Positions 9,956-60,072 of a stretch of 64,000 nt of DNA are shown here, in pieces. Every line of letters begins with the position of its first letter. Position 1 is the first letter of the stretch. The notes under the pieces were generated by a model. It was not told the DNA's origin and made no database searches. It saw only the letters and a list, made by a program, of their open reading frames with translations. The position numbers and the translations under genes are program-made. Source of the stretch: Eledone cirrhosa (Eukaryota); assembly GCA_964016885.1 (NCBI GenBank), contig OZ024740.1:271374001-271438000 (forward strand), written 5' to 3'.

Positions 9956-10990
9956 CAGACACACACAAAAACACTCTGTTGGTGGTATATTATTTAGCCC
10001 CAGGCTATCCCTGACTGACTTGATCTAGGATCAATGGGACTTGAGTTATAAATCCCTCATCCTTTCATTGCGCAGAAGACATTGACAAATATTAGGAATT
10101 AGACAGCGCACTTATAACATGGTTTAAGCTATGATTTAGTACAAGTTTAAGCATCTCTGGTGAGATGCTTATGGAACAAGCCAAAATTTCTCATAGAGTA
10201 CTAAAGTAAATATAAGACTGAATATTCAGATTGATATGAGACAAGTTTAAGTAAAGACATGGATTTTCATTACATAATTTACGTGTTAAAACGATTAATT
10301 GTTTCTACTTTAGGCACAAGGCCAGCAATTACCCAGTGCATTACTGGTACTTTATTTTATCGACCCCGTAAGGATGAAAGGCAAAGTCAACCTCGGCGGG
10401 ATTTGAACTCAGATCGTAAAGGGACGTAACTATGCTGGAAAGCATGGCGTCCGACCCTCTACCGATACTGCCAATCCAAACGATTAATGCTAACACAGAA
10501 ACTGCAACAAAGTTTGTAGGTGAATTTTCAGTTAGAGGCATCGGAAAATTTAACTCCAGGATAAGTTTATAATTCTGACGAATCTACGCTATTTGGTGTC
10601 GTATGTCACGTTAAAACCTCTTGCCAAAGAACTTAAGAAAGCTCTACTCGAGGGAAAGGATTCTAAATATAGGGTAATAGTTCTTAGCTGATGTAACGCT
10701 GTAGAACACATAAAACCAAACTGGTGGTAAATATGAATTCTTTCATTTACTTACCGTCGTAAGTAAAAAGTCTGTATAACAACTAAACTTTTACTTAGGT
10801 GTTTCGGAGATTACTTCGTGATACAAAGTATAAAATATTCTTTATATAAGCAGAACTTTTAAAAAAAGACAATGTTTTGATTTTGACCTCCTACTAAACG
10901 CACTTATGTGATTCAACACTGTGAGCATAGCATGTTACATTCCTGAGCAAACGATAATAAATTACATATACATGCATGCAAGCCACCGGA

Positions 10991-11430
10991 AGAGGCACAA
11001 TCACCGAAACTTCGAAGTCACTGTCACATCTTTTCTTCAGAAAATATGATTTATACTCAGTTTTGAGTGGTCATTCAGTTAATTTTCATCTGTTCTATAT
11101 ACGCGTGTATATATAAATGTATGTATGTATGTATGTATGTATGCATTATATATATAGAAGAAGAGACCCTACCCCACGTAGACCCTATAGAGGGACCAGC
11201 AGTACAAGTCAGAGGCACAATCACCGAAACTTCGAAGTCACTGTCACATCTTTTCTTCAGAAAATATGATTTATACTCAGTTTTGAGTGGTCATTCAGTT
11301 AATTTTCATCTGTTCTATATACGCGTGTATATATAAATGTATGTATGTATGTATGTATGTATGCATTATATATATAGAAGAAGAGACCCTACCCCACGTA
11401 GACCCTATAGAGGGACCAGCAGTACAAGTC
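10991..11430 (+). repeat. Perfect 220-bp tandem duplication spanning flanking DNA and the LINE 5' junction
   Basis: 10991-11210 equals 11211-11430; junction microhomology AGAGGCA/AGCGGCA. Confidence 0.9.
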
Positions 11431-13089
11431 AGCGGCAGCGTAGTAAGTAAGGCAATCAGAGATATGAAGATAGGGAAGGCAACCGGTCCATCGGGTATAG
11501 CTGCCGAGATGCTGAAGGCATCTGGGTCTGTAGGTCACACTATAACCACACGTATCGTTAACCAGGTAATACTAGAGGGGGCCATACCAAAAGATTGGTG
11601 CAGTAGCATCATTGTCAACTGCTACAAAGGTAAAGGCGATGCACTAGATAGAGGAAACTATAGAGGTATAAAGTTGATGGACCAGGTCATGAAAGTAACA
11701 GAAAGAGTTATAGCACAGCTGATTAGGGACCGGGTGAATATAGACGAGATGCAATTTGGGTTTGTACCAGGGAAAGGCACCACTGATGCCCTCTTCCTTG
11801 TGAGGCAATTACAGGAAAAGTACCTAGCTAAAAGTAAGCCACTCTACTTGGCATTTGTCGACCTTGAGAAAGCCTTTGACAGAGTTCCACGTGCAGTAAT
11901 CTGGTGGGCTCTTAGAAAACTAGGAGTAGATGAATGGCTTGTGAAAGCGGTACAAGCCATGTATAGGGGAGCAGTCAGCAAAGTTAGGATTGGCAATGAG
12001 TATAGCGAGGAATTTAGCGTACAGGTTGGGGTCCACCAGGGCTCTGTTCTTAGCCCTCTCCTGTTCATCATAGTCCTGCAGGCAATAACGGAGGAGTTTA
12101 AGACCGGATGCCCATGGGAACTCCTGTATGCTGATGACCTCGCACTCATAGCTGAATCTATGGTAGAACTAGAGAATAAATTCCAAACCTAGAAGCAGGG
12201 ACTAGAGAGAAAGGGCCTCAAAGTCAACATGACAAAGACTAAGGTCCTTGTAAGTAGACGAGAAAACAGAACCCAGATCCCCTCAGGGAAATGGCCTTGC
12301 TCAGTATGTAGGAAAGGTGTAGGTAGGAACTCCATTCTCTGCCCCAAATGCAAACAATGGGTACACAAGAGATGTAGCGGGATCTCAGGAAGCTTAATTA
12401 AGAATGTAGGATTCACATGCAGCAGCTGTGCTGAAACAGCAAGCAAACAGCCACAGGAAACAAGTACCACCAATCTCTGGGAGGGCCCTGTAGAAACAGT
12501 AGACAGCTTCTGCTACCTAGGTGACCGAATTAGCAACGGAGGTGGGTGCTCAGAAAGTACAATAACTAGGGTAAGAACGGGATGGAAGAAGTTTAGGGAA
12601 CTACTACCACTGCTAGCTGCAAAAGGCTTCTCCCTCAGAATGAAAGGCAGACTGTATGATGCGTGTATCCGAACAGCGATGTTGCATGGTAGTGAGACCT
12701 GGGCGCTGAAGGTGGAAGACTTACGTAGATTAGAGAGAAACGAAGCCTGCATGCTCCGATGGATGTGTAACAGTAATATACGTGAACGACAAAGCATAAA
12801 TGAATTGAGAGAGAGACTGAGCATAAGAGGAATCAAATGCTGCGTGCAGGAGAGGCGGTTACGCTGGTATGGACATGTGATGCGTATGAAGGATGACAGC
12901 TGCATAAAAAGGTGCAGAGCACTAGAAGTTGATGGAAACCGCGGAGTGGGGAGACCCAAGATGACTTGGGATGAGGTGATAAAAGCCGACCTTACCCAAC
13001 TACACCTCTCAAAGTCAATGACACACGACCGTGACTTCTGGCGTCACGCAGTAATACAGGGTACCCGACCTCCCATGGGTACATGCTGA
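11377..13089 (+). pseudogene. LINE reverse transcriptase ORF with a single in-frame TAG at 12190-12192 (likely from TGG); endonuclease domain lost by 5' truncation
   Basis: Reads ...ENKFQT*KQGLERKGLKVNMTKTK... without a frameshift and ends at TGA 13087-13089. Confidence 0.9.
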
Positions 13090-18893: not shown

Positions 18894-18985
18894 ATAATAA
18901 TATAGTAATAATAATAAATGTGAAGACTAAAATCCGAAGAGGGCTCGATGTATGTGTATATATATGAGGACTATATGTATTTATA

Positions 18986-25018: not shown

Positions 25019-25141
25019 TATTTATTAAATAAATTAAATCTGTTATTTTAATAAATATTTGCTCTACGGTTCTTATATATTTGACATATATTTATCCTTA
25101 TCGAGCCCTCTTTGGATTTTAGTCTTCAAATTTATTATTAT

Positions 25142-25178
<37 letters not shown>

Positions 25179-31361: not shown

Positions 31362-31394
<33 letters not shown>

Positions 31395-31562
31395 TTATTA
31401 AAATAACAGATTAAAGTTTAAGCAAAGAATCGCTGCTGTCACCCTTAACGGGATCTTATGAAACTAAAAAAGTCAATATTTGGTCTACGGTGCTTATATA
31501 TTTGATATATATTTATCCTTATCGAGCCCTCTTTGGATTTTAGTCTTCAAATTTATTATTAT

Positions 31563-31641
<79 letters not shown>

Positions 31642-50403: not shown

Positions 50404-50972
50404 ATTATTATGTAATATACAACATAAGGCAATTATTCCATTTACCAGTGGTTTCTTAAAAGCAAAAGGTTTTGCTTTCAATCCTCAGAATGAAAAAATC
50501 CTGGTTATATATATATATATGAGTCCCGGGTTCAATCGGGGGTAGCCACCGTTCTAGTCCTGTAGAAGCCATTTCTATATTAAATTTTGTTATATATATA
50601 TTTATTAAAATAACAGATTAAAGTTTATGCCCTCTTTGGATTTTAGTCTTCAAATTTATTATTATTACTATATATATAGATAGATAGGTATGTATGTATG
50701 TATGTATGTATGTATGTATGTATGTATGTATGTATGTATGTATGTATGTATGTATGTATGTGTGTATGTGTGTATGTACGTATATACGTATATACATATA
50801 TGTATGTATGTGTGTATATGTGTATATGTCTGTGTGTGTGTATGTGTGTTTGTGTGTGTAGAGGTATGCATGAATGTATATATGTGTGAGTGTGCGTGTG
50901 TGTATATTTGTGCGTGCGTGCGTGCGTGCGTGTTCACAAATAAAAGAATTGTATTGAAGCAAACACGATACA

Positions 50973-51586
50973 CAGGGGCGGTGGAAACATTTCTGAATGA
51001 GGAAGGGGGCAAATTTAGACAATTTAGTTGTGTTTAGCTGTTAGATAGAGCTCAAATCCCGCCGAGGTTGACTTTGCCTTTCATCCTTACGGGGTCGATA
51101 AAATAAAGTACCAGTAATGCACTGGGTATTTGCTGGCCTTGTGCCTAAAGTAGAAACAATTATCAAATATCAACCAAGAGCGGTGGATTGGCAGTATCGG
51201 TAGAGGGTCAGACACCATGCTTTGACGCATAGAGTTACGGCCCTTTATAATTTGAGTTCAAAGCCCGCCGACGTTAAATTTGCCTTTCATCCTTACGGGG
51301 GTCGATAAAATAAAGTACCACTCACGCACTGGGTCAATTTCATCGACTTCCCCCTCCCCCCTCCTCCCCCCCAATTACTGGCCTTGTGCCTATATAAGAA
51401 AAACATTACCAAATATCAACCAAGATATATAAAAAAAATTCGATATGCGATAAACATAACATGTACATAAATTGTAGCGTATGTATAAACAGATGTGTGT
51501 TTTGCTAGTTTGGGGAGAAAAACATAATTATTGGGGGGGTGGGGTCATTGTGCCCTCTGCTCTCACCCCCAGTTCCACCGCTTCTG
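50973..51586 (+). mobile_element. MITE with nested SINEs; second copy in opposite orientation at 59164-59763
   Basis: TIRs CAGGGGCGGTGGAA / TTCCACCGCTTCTG; internal 51440-51586 is the reverse complement of about 59164-59308. Confidence 0.75.
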
Positions 51587-54326: not shown

Positions 54327-54551
54327 TTATATATATATATATATTTATTTATTTATTAAAATAACAGATTAAAGTTTAAGCAAAGAATCGCTGCTTATTC
54401 AATCTTTGGATTTTAGTCTTCAATTTTATTATTATTATTATTATTAAAATCCCGCCGAGGTTAACTTTGCCTTTCATCCTTACGGGGTCGATAAAATAAA
54501 GTACCAGTAATGTACTGAGTAATTTCTGGCCTTGTGCCAATAGTAGAAACA

Positions 54552-58145: not shown

Positions 58146-59317
58146 AATATATATATATACAAATATATGTATGTATATATATATATATATACTGGATAAC
58201 CGCGTTCTGGATATATTATTCGTTCTGATATGATGCACATGGTTACATTCTTTAAACGAGAGTATACCTCATTAGATTTCCCTCGGTACTAAACAGGTTC
58301 ATTTTTATTTTTTATTTCTCTTTCTCTTTCTCTTTCTCTTTTTCTTTTTCTTTTTCATTTTCTTTTTCTTTTTCTTTTTTTTTTAACTCGGTGGAATGTA
58401 AGGCTTTCAATATTTGAATTTAGAAGTCAGAAAAGAAAATCAAGTGGTTAAAGGTTGGAATACCGATCAATCATTGTTGATTCGAGATATTACACAGGTA
58501 TTTGGGGGGGGGGGGGGGTTGTCGAAGCTTGTCATTCGACCGACTTTTTATTTATGTTATAATTGTTTCTACTTTTGGCATAAGGCCAGCAAATACACCA
58601 GTGCATTACTGGTACTTTATTTTACTCTATGCGTAACGGCCCTTGCCATTCTGAGTTCAAATCCCGCCGAGGTTATCTTTGCCTTTCATCCTTACGGGGT
58701 CGATAAAATAAAGTACCAGTAATTATTTATGTAGTAATTAAAGGGTGGTTCTCTTCGATCAGAAGCTTCTACAATAATAACAAGAACAACAACATCAACG
58801 ATGGGAAGTGTCATGCTTAGAATGACCGACAGAACCCAGATTAAATACATAAGTTCATACAGTTAGATTGACAATAACGCGGTAGTTTATATTGGAATAA
58901 CTGGTGGCTGTGAGGTGTTGTGTTTGTATGTTGCTTGAATTAACCTTTGTATTGTATAGAATATCTTATCTCTGTTCGCAACTTCTACCCGAGTACAGCT
59001 ATTAGGGGTGGCAGGAGGTGATAGGAAGCTAACCAACAACAACAATATATATTATTGTATTACATTTGCTTTATTTTCTTGGCTTTTTTTTTTTTTTTTG
59101 CCTTTCTGTCAGTGATTGTTTTGGTAGTTTCTGATGGAATTAGGACCTCTCGAAGATCAGGGCAGGGGCAGTGGAACTGGGGACGGGGGACATGGCCACT
59201 TCCTTCCCCAATAATTATATTTTTCTCCCCAAACTACCAAAACACACATCTGTTTGTATATACGCTACAATTTATGTACATGTGGTGTTTATCGTATATT
59301 GAAGTTTTATATATATA

Positions 59318-59370
<53 letters not shown>

Positions 59371-59374
<4 letters not shown>

Positions 59375-59583
59375 ATAATAATAAATTTGAAGACTAAAAT
59401 CCAAAGAGGGCTCGATAAGGATAAATATATATCAAATATATAAGAACCGTAGAGCAAATATTTATTAAAATAACAGATTAAAGTTTAAGCAAAGAATCGC
59501 TGCTTTCACCCTTAGCGGGATCTTCTGAAACTCTTAAGGGTGAAAGCAGCGATTCTTTGCTTAAACTTCAATCTGTTATTTTA

Positions 59584-59590
<7 letters not shown>
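59371..59590. mobile_element. Fold-back family D; other copies or fragments at about 18890-18950, 25013-25146, 31395-31566, 50601-50669, 54352-54445
   Basis: Shared AAATAACAGATTAAAGTTTAAGCAAAGAATCGCTGC and ATCGAGCCCTCTTTGGATTTTAGTCTTCAAATTTATTATTATTAC; inverted arms about 59457-59514 and 59533-59590. Confidence 0.8.
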
Positions 59591-59635
<45 letters not shown>

Positions 59636-60072
59636 ACTGATATTTGATAATAACAGCTAAATTAATCACTTACAACTAAATTGACCAAATTTTTCCCCCC
59701 ACCACAAACAACACCACCACCACCACCACAACCACCAATTCAGAAATGCTTCCACCGCCCTTGCACGGAATAATATATCTGTAAAAGATTGATTCGACTT
59801 ATCTAAATCGATACAGAGGGATTTAAAAAAAGCAAAGTTGCCCTACTTATCCCACCGATCCAATCATCTCAACGAGATTTCTCTTAAAAATTATGAATGG
59901 AAAGATTCAAATAATGAAAGTTCTAATTAAGTAATCAGCGAGTGAATTATTAAGGATTGGTGGGTTTTTCCCGCCTCAAGGATGCTGGGAAACCTTCAGA
60001 AATATATGATTAGGGATGGTGTGAATATTACTACATGTTTTAAATATTTGCTTCCTGTTACATGAATGAATA

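What the first reader, a model, noticed from the sequence alone, without database searches (positions are those of the whole stretch)
59290..59650. Paralogous empty site suggests long (TA)n tracts arise with or after fold-back insertion
Seen: two copies of one MITE lie at 50973-51586 and 59164-59763. In the first, the site reads (reverse complement of about 51410-51445) CGAATTTTTTTT-ATATAT-CTTGGTTGATATTTG, only about 3 TA units. In the second, the same site holds about 60 bp of TA, a 220-bp family D fold-back, and about 45 bp of TA. Inference: the element targeted a short TA run and the tracts were generated or expanded around it, so these retroelements may seed microsatellites rather than just land in them.
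Basis: partly seen in the sequence, partly recalled or inferred. Interest (0 to 1): 0.7.

Follow-up and report, generated by a model that had tools for sequence, protein, structure and literature searches.

The report
Penelope element landing in new microsatellite
A jumping gene of a known TA-repeat-seeking kind sits between two long TA repeats at a spot that normally has only two TA units; genome-wide comparison shows such spots also lengthen on their own, so the element likely landed on an already lengthened repeat, which then likely gained more TA, rather than creating it from scratch.

Summary
Observation confirmed. The host is a ~240-270-bp MITE whose site reads T5-11 ATAT in 241 exact-pattern empty copies (100 listed, at most 3 AT units). 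The window copy holds 31 TA units, a 217-bp fold-back and 22 TA units. The fold-back is the double-ended stump of a Hydra-clade Penelope-like element (2.9-kb unit with 729-aa ORF found); Hydra insertion into (TA)n is published. Eleven long-TA alleles were found at this site: 5 with fold-back/partial-tandem inserts, 1 with SINE+LINE, 5 insert-free (6-14 units); a neighbouring MITE site has 3 insert-free expansions and no fill. A SINE (TA)3 site (6,829 copies) shows no two-sided fill, and 26 of 39 family-D copies sit across a tract from another repeat end. So seeding from 2-3 units is not the usual route: slippage likely comes first, landing second. No orthologous empty allele could be read.

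The parts
59163..59763 (+). MITE copy A (filled); 14-bp terminal inverted repeats; family has 5-bp target duplications
   Evidence: family: 611 candidates; 5-bp duplication exact in 10 of 22 copies, at most 1 mismatch in 15 of 22
59301..59308 (+). Left edge of the site: GAAG plus a T-run of 4 (empty copies mostly have T5-11)
59308..59371 (.). Left TA tract, (TA)6 TT (TA)25
59372..59458 (-). One-sided 87-nt 'tail' of family D (sequence that follows the upstream pseudo-LTR, just before the ORF, in the full element)
   Evidence: matches L214 3231-3084; architecture
59458..59590 (.). Inverted arms of family D (59458-59514 and 59534-59590, 56 of 57 nt complementary): two head-to-head copies of the pseudo-LTR 3' end
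59589..59632 (.). Right TA tract, (TA)22; the C of the consensus ATATCTTGG is missing at the junction
50973..51586 (-). MITE copy B (site empty), with two SINE pieces inserted further on
51425..51438 (-). Empty paralogous site, T8 + (AT)3
   Evidence: row C1:271425411
31392..31565 (-). Another family-D fold-back between TA tracts (further D pieces at 18905-18949, 25031-25144, 50598-50668, 54350-54437)

Best explanation
The insert is a truncated, double-ended copy of a Hydra-type Penelope-like retrotransposon, and the TA tracts likely arose in two steps: the MITE's T-run+ATAT site first lengthened by ordinary slippage, and the element then likely cut that tract and left two halves that kept or gained length. 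Shown: the site is short in almost all copies; it reaches 6-15 units without any insert in about 1% of copies; the full element has no (TA)n at either point where copies end; most family-D copies lie in tracts that also border other repeats. Inferred: the GIY-YIG endonuclease cuts both strands of a tract of roughly 6 or more units, the reverse transcriptase primes from both 3' ends (one copy with the 87-nt tail, one without), a target duplication of a few TA units is added, and each half then behaves as its own microsatellite, so one tract becomes two and total TA rises. The elements thus multiply and likely enlarge microsatellites but seldom start them.
For: Empty-site census: 241 exact matches, 100 listed, at most 3 AT units; the pattern catches 12 of 27 sampled copies of this subfamily (my count), so ~540 copies. 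Long alleles at this site from four pattern searches (read): 5 insert-free (L069 6, L070 6, L102/106 10 plus minisatellite, L107 12, L076 14), 5 with fold-back or partial-tandem inserts, 1 with SINE+LINE. Second TA site in the same MITE: 4 loci, 3 insert-free (15, 14, 6 units), 1 rearranged, 0 filled. SINE control: 6,829 copies with (TA)3; 7 have 7 or more units, 1 insert-free, none of the other 6 resumes the SINE after a TA tract within 10 kb, and 0 of 7 right-anchored hits has the SINE left part within 1.5 kb; Fisher p=2e-6 against 5/540, or 4e-4 if 5 one-sided cases are counted as fills. 26 of 39 D copies face another recurrent end or hairpin across the tract, 33 of 39 that or a compound microsatellite, close to the 172 of 301 long background tracts with such an end (binomial p=0.26), while 2-3-unit runs number 12,101 per 1.06 Mb. 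Insert-free tracts of 30-66 units exist at an internal site of another repeat (10 of 49 rows, from three arrays). Outer edges of element-flanking tracts are not enriched for T-runs (13 of 138 vs 51 of 625, p=0.61). Full element lacks (TA)n at the tail junction, and tail-end tracts are as long as short-end tracts (medians 15 and 16). Penelope target duplications of 8-10 bp (PMC3846280); two-strand cutting and extension in vitro (PMC11167929).
Against: Filled alleles total 53, 42, 28, 34 and 28 units; no insert-free allele at either MITE site has a run above 15 (exact Mann-Whitney p=0.0008; p=0.015 if the L102 minisatellite is scored as its 61-unit sum). An 8-10-bp duplication adds only 4-5 units, so the extra growth is assumed, not shown. 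All 6 filled alleles have the T-run cut to 3-4 (2 of 5 insert-free long ones do; p=0.06). Numbers are small (5 vs 8), the searches were exact patterns that miss diverged copies, the ~540 is an estimate, background 'recurrent ends' include SINE tails and MITE ends and miss rare families, and nesting shows landing in tracts that an earlier element may itself have made. No orthologous or allelic empty site was read.
Confidence: 0.55

Rival explanations
1. Seeding: the element cuts the short T-run+ATAT site directly and the long tracts are made at insertion (reverse transcriptase stuttering on the 3-4-nt UA microhomology at both start points, as telomerase does) or soon after (slippage beside the hairpin).
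For: Filled alleles are all far longer than insert-free ones; T-run is T3-4 in 6 of 6 filled alleles; both start points in the full element are followed by only a short AU/UAU stretch; a minority of D junctions show short re-copied ends; the MITE site is filled at least 10-20 times more often than the SINE (TA)3 site; Penelope RTs are sister to telomerase (PMC8557442 abstract).
Against: Same site expands without inserts equally often; no two-sided fill in 6,829 SINE (TA)3 copies or at the second MITE site; no T-run enrichment at outer edges of element-flanking tracts; flank erosion also accompanies insert-free long alleles (L076, L262, L270); 31 of 46 tail-end junctions are exact; Hydra ORFs lack the insertion-in-fingers domain linked to repeat addition (PMC8557442 section 11 and passages).
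Confidence: 0.2
2. Pure landing with no gain: tracts grew to about 30 or more units by slippage first, and the element, strongly preferring long tracts, simply split them.
For: Median left+right sum is 28 for D (48 pairs) and E (36 pairs), equal to the background median when runs are weighted by length squared (27-31). No trend of tract length with element divergence (D tail end rho 0.09, p=0.52, n=54; E rho -0.12, p=0.43, n=43). Long insert-free tracts are common in the genome (129 of 301 at 28 or more units).
Against: It needs all 5 MITE alleles that reached 28 or more units to have been hit, with probability about 0.02-0.12 at genome-wide capture rates; linear length weighting predicts sums of only 16-23; sides under 4 units are rarer than a uniform cut predicts (by eye).
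Confidence: 0.2
3. The tracts are carried in the element's RNA (read-through (UA)n tails copied with each insertion).
For: The downstream pseudo-LTR of the full copy is followed directly by a long TA tract, so read-through RNA could template the short end.
Against: The tail end comes from the pseudo-LTR/ORF junction, where no (TA)n exists in the full element, yet its tracts are as long as those of the short end.
Confidence: 0.03
4. The insert-free long alleles are former filled sites from which the fold-back was deleted between the two TA tracts, so all long alleles go back to an insertion.
For: A hairpin between direct repeats is a plausible deletion substrate (general knowledge, recalled); L076 shares the T4 edge and the lost C with filled alleles.
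Against: Deletion between tracts totalling 28-53 units should leave longer runs than the 6-15 seen; the second MITE site has 3 insert-free expansions and no filled allele; 3 of 5 insert-free long alleles keep the full T-run.
Confidence: 0.05

Closest known systems
Hydra clade of C-terminal EN+ Penelope-like elements (Craig et al. 2021, PMC8557442; includes Hydra-1_Obim of Octopus bimaculoides, listed with (TA)n preference in File S1)
   Same: Single ORF, unit under 3 kb, DKT motif, CxCX5C linker, C-terminal GIY-YIG, CxxC and CxH around the conserved E and N, insertion into (TA)n, inverted truncated copy with one-sided tail.
   Different: RWG for RWK; only a degenerate hammerhead core; tail 87 nt rather than 30-40. 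In the passages read the paper reports the (TA)n bias and says target duplications could often not be discerned; it does not test whether tracts pre-exist or grow.
MuTAnT Mutator-like fold-back elements of Medicago (PMC4486113)
   Same: 200-300-bp fold-backs in (TA)n; occupied sites carry about 15 units per flank against 9 in empty sites, the same filled-longer-than-empty pattern with empty sites already expanded.
   Different: DNA transposons with 9-bp duplications, not retroelements; tested with true empty alleles from other ecotypes, which could not be obtained here.
Microsatellite birth from L1/Alu tails and internal proto-microsatellites (review PMC3812793); TE-carried repeat expansion in penaeid shrimp (PMC7878876)
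   Same: Repeat-borne proto-microsatellites lengthen after insertion, as the MITE's T-run+ATAT does here; Penelope elements go with long (AT)n in L. vannamei.
   Different: There the element supplies or carries the repeat; family D encodes no (TA)n, and the proto-microsatellite belongs to a different, older element.
Poseidon PAc in vitro mechanism (PMC11167929)
   Same: Both strands cut and extended, two internal start points defining a tail, AT-rich targets.
   Different: Different clade; no microsatellite target and no repeat addition reported in the parts read.

Membership tests
Hydra-clade Penelope-like element | Single ORF with RT then C-terminal GIY-YIG endonuclease; unit under 3 kb | tested here: met
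   L214 3268-5454, 729 aa, YRDD at 346, IVY 583, YIG 598; repeat unit about 2.9 kb. Read from motifs; Pfam and PDB gave no match, NCBIfam only two weak unrelated ones.
Hydra-clade Penelope-like element | DKT in place of DKG; RWK motif; GxKF/Y not conserved | tested here: met
   DKT at 115, RWG at 37 (one residue off RWK), GFKT at 57 (criteria)
Hydra-clade Penelope-like element | CxCX5C linker instead of CX2-5CxxC; CxxC and CxH beside conserved E and N | tested here: met
   CxCX5C at 564, no CX2-5CxxC, CxxC..E at 662, N..CxH at 681
Hydra-clade Penelope-like element | Canonical hammerhead ribozyme in the pseudo-LTR | tested here: inconclusive
   No Rfam hammerhead match in 271 nt; a core-like CAGAAGA...GAAA with a short stem occurs in both pseudo-LTRs; activity untested
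Hydra-clade Penelope-like element | Placement in the Hydra clade by RT phylogeny | not testable with these tools
   Reference sequences were not among the supplement held (one metadata file)
Hydra-clade Penelope-like element | Insertion into (TA)n; inverted truncated copy with one-sided tail | tested here: met
   TA tracts on both sides of nearly all 39 sampled fold-backs; tail on one end only
Naiad clade | N-terminal GIY-YIG endonuclease | tested here: not met
   Endonuclease motifs are C-terminal
Neptune/Nematis clades | CX2-5CxxC zinc-finger linker | tested here: not met
   Pattern absent
MITE (non-autonomous DNA transposon) for the host repeat | Short, terminal inverted repeats, target duplication, many copies | tested here: met
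   Uninterrupted copies 234-272 bp, 14-bp TIRs, 5-bp duplication in 10 of 22 exactly; 611 candidates. Superfamily not tested.
Microsatellite-seeding element (makes a long repeat from a 2-3-unit target) | Short runs are used as targets and long tracts occur only with an insert | tested here: not met
   8 insert-free long alleles at two MITE sites; 0 two-sided fills in 6,829 SINE (TA)3 copies
Microsatellite-seeding element (makes a long repeat from a 2-3-unit target) | Orthologous or allelic empty site is short | tested here: inconclusive
   No contig or read bridged the site at two loci

The most novel reading that the evidence does not exclude
Hydra-type Penelope reverse transcriptases add (TA)n repeats at both primed DNA ends by re-copying a 3-4-nt UA template, telomerase-style, so that each insertion builds its own microsatellites and these elements are a main engine of this genome's roughly 750 long TA tracts per Mb.
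Probability: 0.1. Interest if true: 0.8.

Novelty: new member of a known kind. Interest (0 to 1): 0.36.

Why it matters
Insertion of these elements into TA repeats is known, but inside a repeat the target duplication cannot be read, so whether they make or merely use the repeats has been hard to test. A MITE family with about 540 copies of one short site gives a natural experiment with repeated independent events. It argues against seeding from scratch and for a loop in which slippage opens a site, an element splits it into two tracts and these attract more elements. The unexplained excess of TA at filled sites leaves room for repeat addition by a telomerase-related enzyme, which can be tested in vitro.

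Tried and rejected
Reads/contigs: two attempts to see an empty allele or ortholog (window left flank; D locus L044) gave no bridging record; two of the runs laid had nothing laid; no conclusion drawn. Automated search for filled/empty paralogs in 1.06 Mb plus loci: first script timed out; the second gave 104 candidates, almost all false or internal to the elements, and added no usable site beyond the MITE. Third control site (11 of 14 copies short in 1.06 Mb): 3 long alleles genome-wide, one insert-free with a flank deletion, two one-sided junctions, no fill; too few to weigh. Dropped before counting: 3 loci (L074, L084, L088) that are a different junction; L261 (rearranged); duplicate overlapping matches. 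T-run trimming as a signature of insertion: rejected as specific, because insert-free long alleles also lose flank bases and no genome-wide enrichment was seen. Tract length versus age: no trend, low power. Pfam, PDB, NCBIfam and Rfam gave nothing useful. Inserts E, F and G were taken as Penelope-type from their architecture only; their ORFs were not tested. Literature searches found no paper in the held library testing empty against filled sites for Penelope-like elements; subscription papers are not covered and the bioRxiv supplement of 10.64898/2026.07.22.740005 could not be seen. Earlier-findings look-ups by words and by sequence returned nothing.

Full report
Observation. The two MITE copies and the site are as described. 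Copy A (59163-59763) reads GAAG T4, (TA)6 TT (TA)25, a 217-bp fold-back, (TA)22. Copy B (50973-51586, minus strand) reads T8 (AT)3 CTTGG at the same place and has SINE pieces inserted a little further on. The genome is 3.0 Gb and very rich in TA tracts: 800 tracts of 8 or more units in 1.064 Mb sampled from five places. Earlier scan notes call it octopus-like; I did not test that.

The host. A DNA search gave 611 candidates (40 scored). Uninterrupted copies are 234-272 bp with 14-bp inverted ends and 5-bp duplications (exact in 10 of 22). One subfamily has the T-run+ATAT site, another lacks it. An exact two-anchor pattern found 241 empty copies; of the 100 listed none has more than 3 AT units, 5 have 3 (my count). 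The pattern catches 12 of 27 sampled copies of the subfamily (my count), so about 540 copies exist. The ancestral state is short.

The insert. Family D has 2,194 candidates (40 scored). A full unit on another chromosome (L214) shows pseudo-LTR + tail, a 729-aa ORF, pseudo-LTR, then a TA tract. The window insert matches the end of the pseudo-LTR twice, head to head, one copy with an 87-nt tail. The ORF has DKT, YRDD, a CxCX5C linker, C-terminal GIY-YIG motifs and CxxC/CxH around the conserved E and N, fitting the Hydra clade as described in section 11 of PMC8557442, where almost all families insert into (TA)n; that paper's File S1 lists Hydra-1_Obim with (TA)n preference. Only a degenerate hammerhead core is present; no tree was possible. 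In vitro, a Poseidon element cuts and extends both strands from two internal start points (PMC11167929, parts 1-2 of 4 read); the same model explains the fold-back here (inferred; earlier scan notes reached the same view). In the full element neither start point is followed by (TA)n except the downstream pseudo-LTR, and tail-end tracts are as long as short-end tracts (medians 15 and 16), so the tracts are not simply carried in the RNA.

Census of the site. Four pattern searches gave 11 distinct long alleles. Filled with fold-back or partial-tandem inserts: window (31/22 units), L061 (23/19), L071 (17/11), L068 (25/9), L108 (22/6), from four different families; L067 has SINE+LINE (8/3). Insert-free: L069 (6), L070 (6), L102/106 (10, within a TA/TTGGA minisatellite of 61 units in sum), L107 (12), L076 (14). 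Three further loci are another junction and were dropped. At a second TA site in the same MITE, 4 loci had 6 or more units: 3 insert-free (15, 14, 6), 1 rearranged, none filled (the anchor is present in 25 of 38 sampled copies).

Controls against seeding. A SINE variant has (TA)3 near its end in 6,829 exact copies. Seven have 7 or more units: one is insert-free, six are one-sided junctions in which the SINE does not resume after a TA tract within 10 kb, and none of 7 right-anchored hits has the SINE left part within 1.5 kb. So 0 of 6,829 two-sided fills against 5 of about 540 (p=2e-6; 4e-4 if five one-sided cases next to Penelope-type ends are counted). The short SINE remainder and SINE age limit this control. 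Of 39 other D copies, 26 face another recurrent end or hairpin across a tract and 33 do so or sit in compound microsatellites, near the 172 of 301 for long background tracts, whereas 2-3-unit runs number 12,101 in 1.064 Mb. Another repeat has insert-free tracts of 30-66 units at an internal site (10 of 49 rows, three arrays). Outer edges of element-flanking tracts are not enriched for T-runs (13 of 138 vs 51 of 625).

Evidence for a gain. Filled alleles total 28-53 units, insert-free ones have runs of 6-15 (p=0.0008, or 0.015 with the minisatellite scored as 61); single sides are also longer (p=0.016, where one side was entered as 26 rather than 25). That all five alleles of 28 or more units were hit has probability about 0.02-0.12 under pure landing. 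Genome-wide the median left+right sum is 28 for D (48 pairs) and E (36 pairs); length-weighted background gives 16-23, squared weighting 27-31, so a steep preference for long tracts could also produce it. Published Penelope duplications of 8-10 bp (PMC3846280 passages) add only 4-5 units. The T-run is T3-4 in 6 of 6 filled alleles and 2 of 5 insert-free long ones (p=0.06), but flank loss also occurs without inserts. Tract length shows no trend with element divergence. Junctions are mostly exact (31 of 46 tail ends), with a few short re-copied ends.

What could not be shown. No contig or read from the same or a related organism bridged the site at two loci, so the order of events rests on paralogs and small numbers.

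Comparison with print. MuTAnT fold-backs in Medicago show the same filled-longer-than-empty pattern with empty sites averaging 9 units (PMC4486113, passages and Table 1). Birth of microsatellites from repeat tails and internal proto-microsatellites is reviewed in PMC3812793 (passages); Penelope elements go with long (AT)n in shrimp (PMC7878876, passages). PMC13282606 (passages) and bioRxiv 10.64898/2026.07.22.740005 (passages) do not address the question in the passages seen. Seven searches found no empty-versus-filled test for Penelope-like elements in the held library.

Verdict. A real feature: a known kind of TA-targeting retroelement in a derived microsatellite. Most likely slippage first, landing second, with net gain afterwards (0.55); seeding 0.2; pure landing 0.2. 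Interest 0.36.

Noticed in passing
window 59163-59763 and loci L003-L270: The MITE family makes 5-bp target duplications (exact in 10 of 22 copies), unusual for its CAGGGG ends; superfamily not determined (hAT5-like is recalled, not tested). Longer internal versions (L010, L024, L261, L271) suggest two deletion-derived subfamilies.
   Followed up: partly
window about 51050-51405; L027, L030, L076: A second hotspot in the same MITE, just after TGATATTT, holds SINE insertions in several copies.
   Followed up: no
1.064-Mb sample: Dozens of unrelated TA-flanked families, many fold-back, stack in shared TA tracts; over half of tracts have a recurrent end on at least one side.
   Followed up: partly
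L214 1732-6162: Partial-tandem family-D element with an open 729-aa ORF and a degenerate hammerhead core (CAGA for CUGA) at the point where many fold-back arms turn.
   Followed up: partly
L102/L106 about 1370-1520: The MITE site has become a minisatellite of (TA)8-10 + TTGGA units, seven copies.
   Followed up: no
L234-L238, L240: SINE copies end at their internal TATATA directly on long TA tracts; possibly primed there on existing tracts or joined by deletion.
   Followed up: partly
blocks B2 10353-12621 and B3 75384-77433, 115381-121935: Tandem arrays of a ~470-590-bp unit whose internal TA site varies from 5 to 66 units between neighbouring units; one array alternates 6 and 9 units.
   Followed up: no
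L067: SINE plus LINE fragment inserted at the same MITE site with (TA)8 on one side only.
   Followed up: partly
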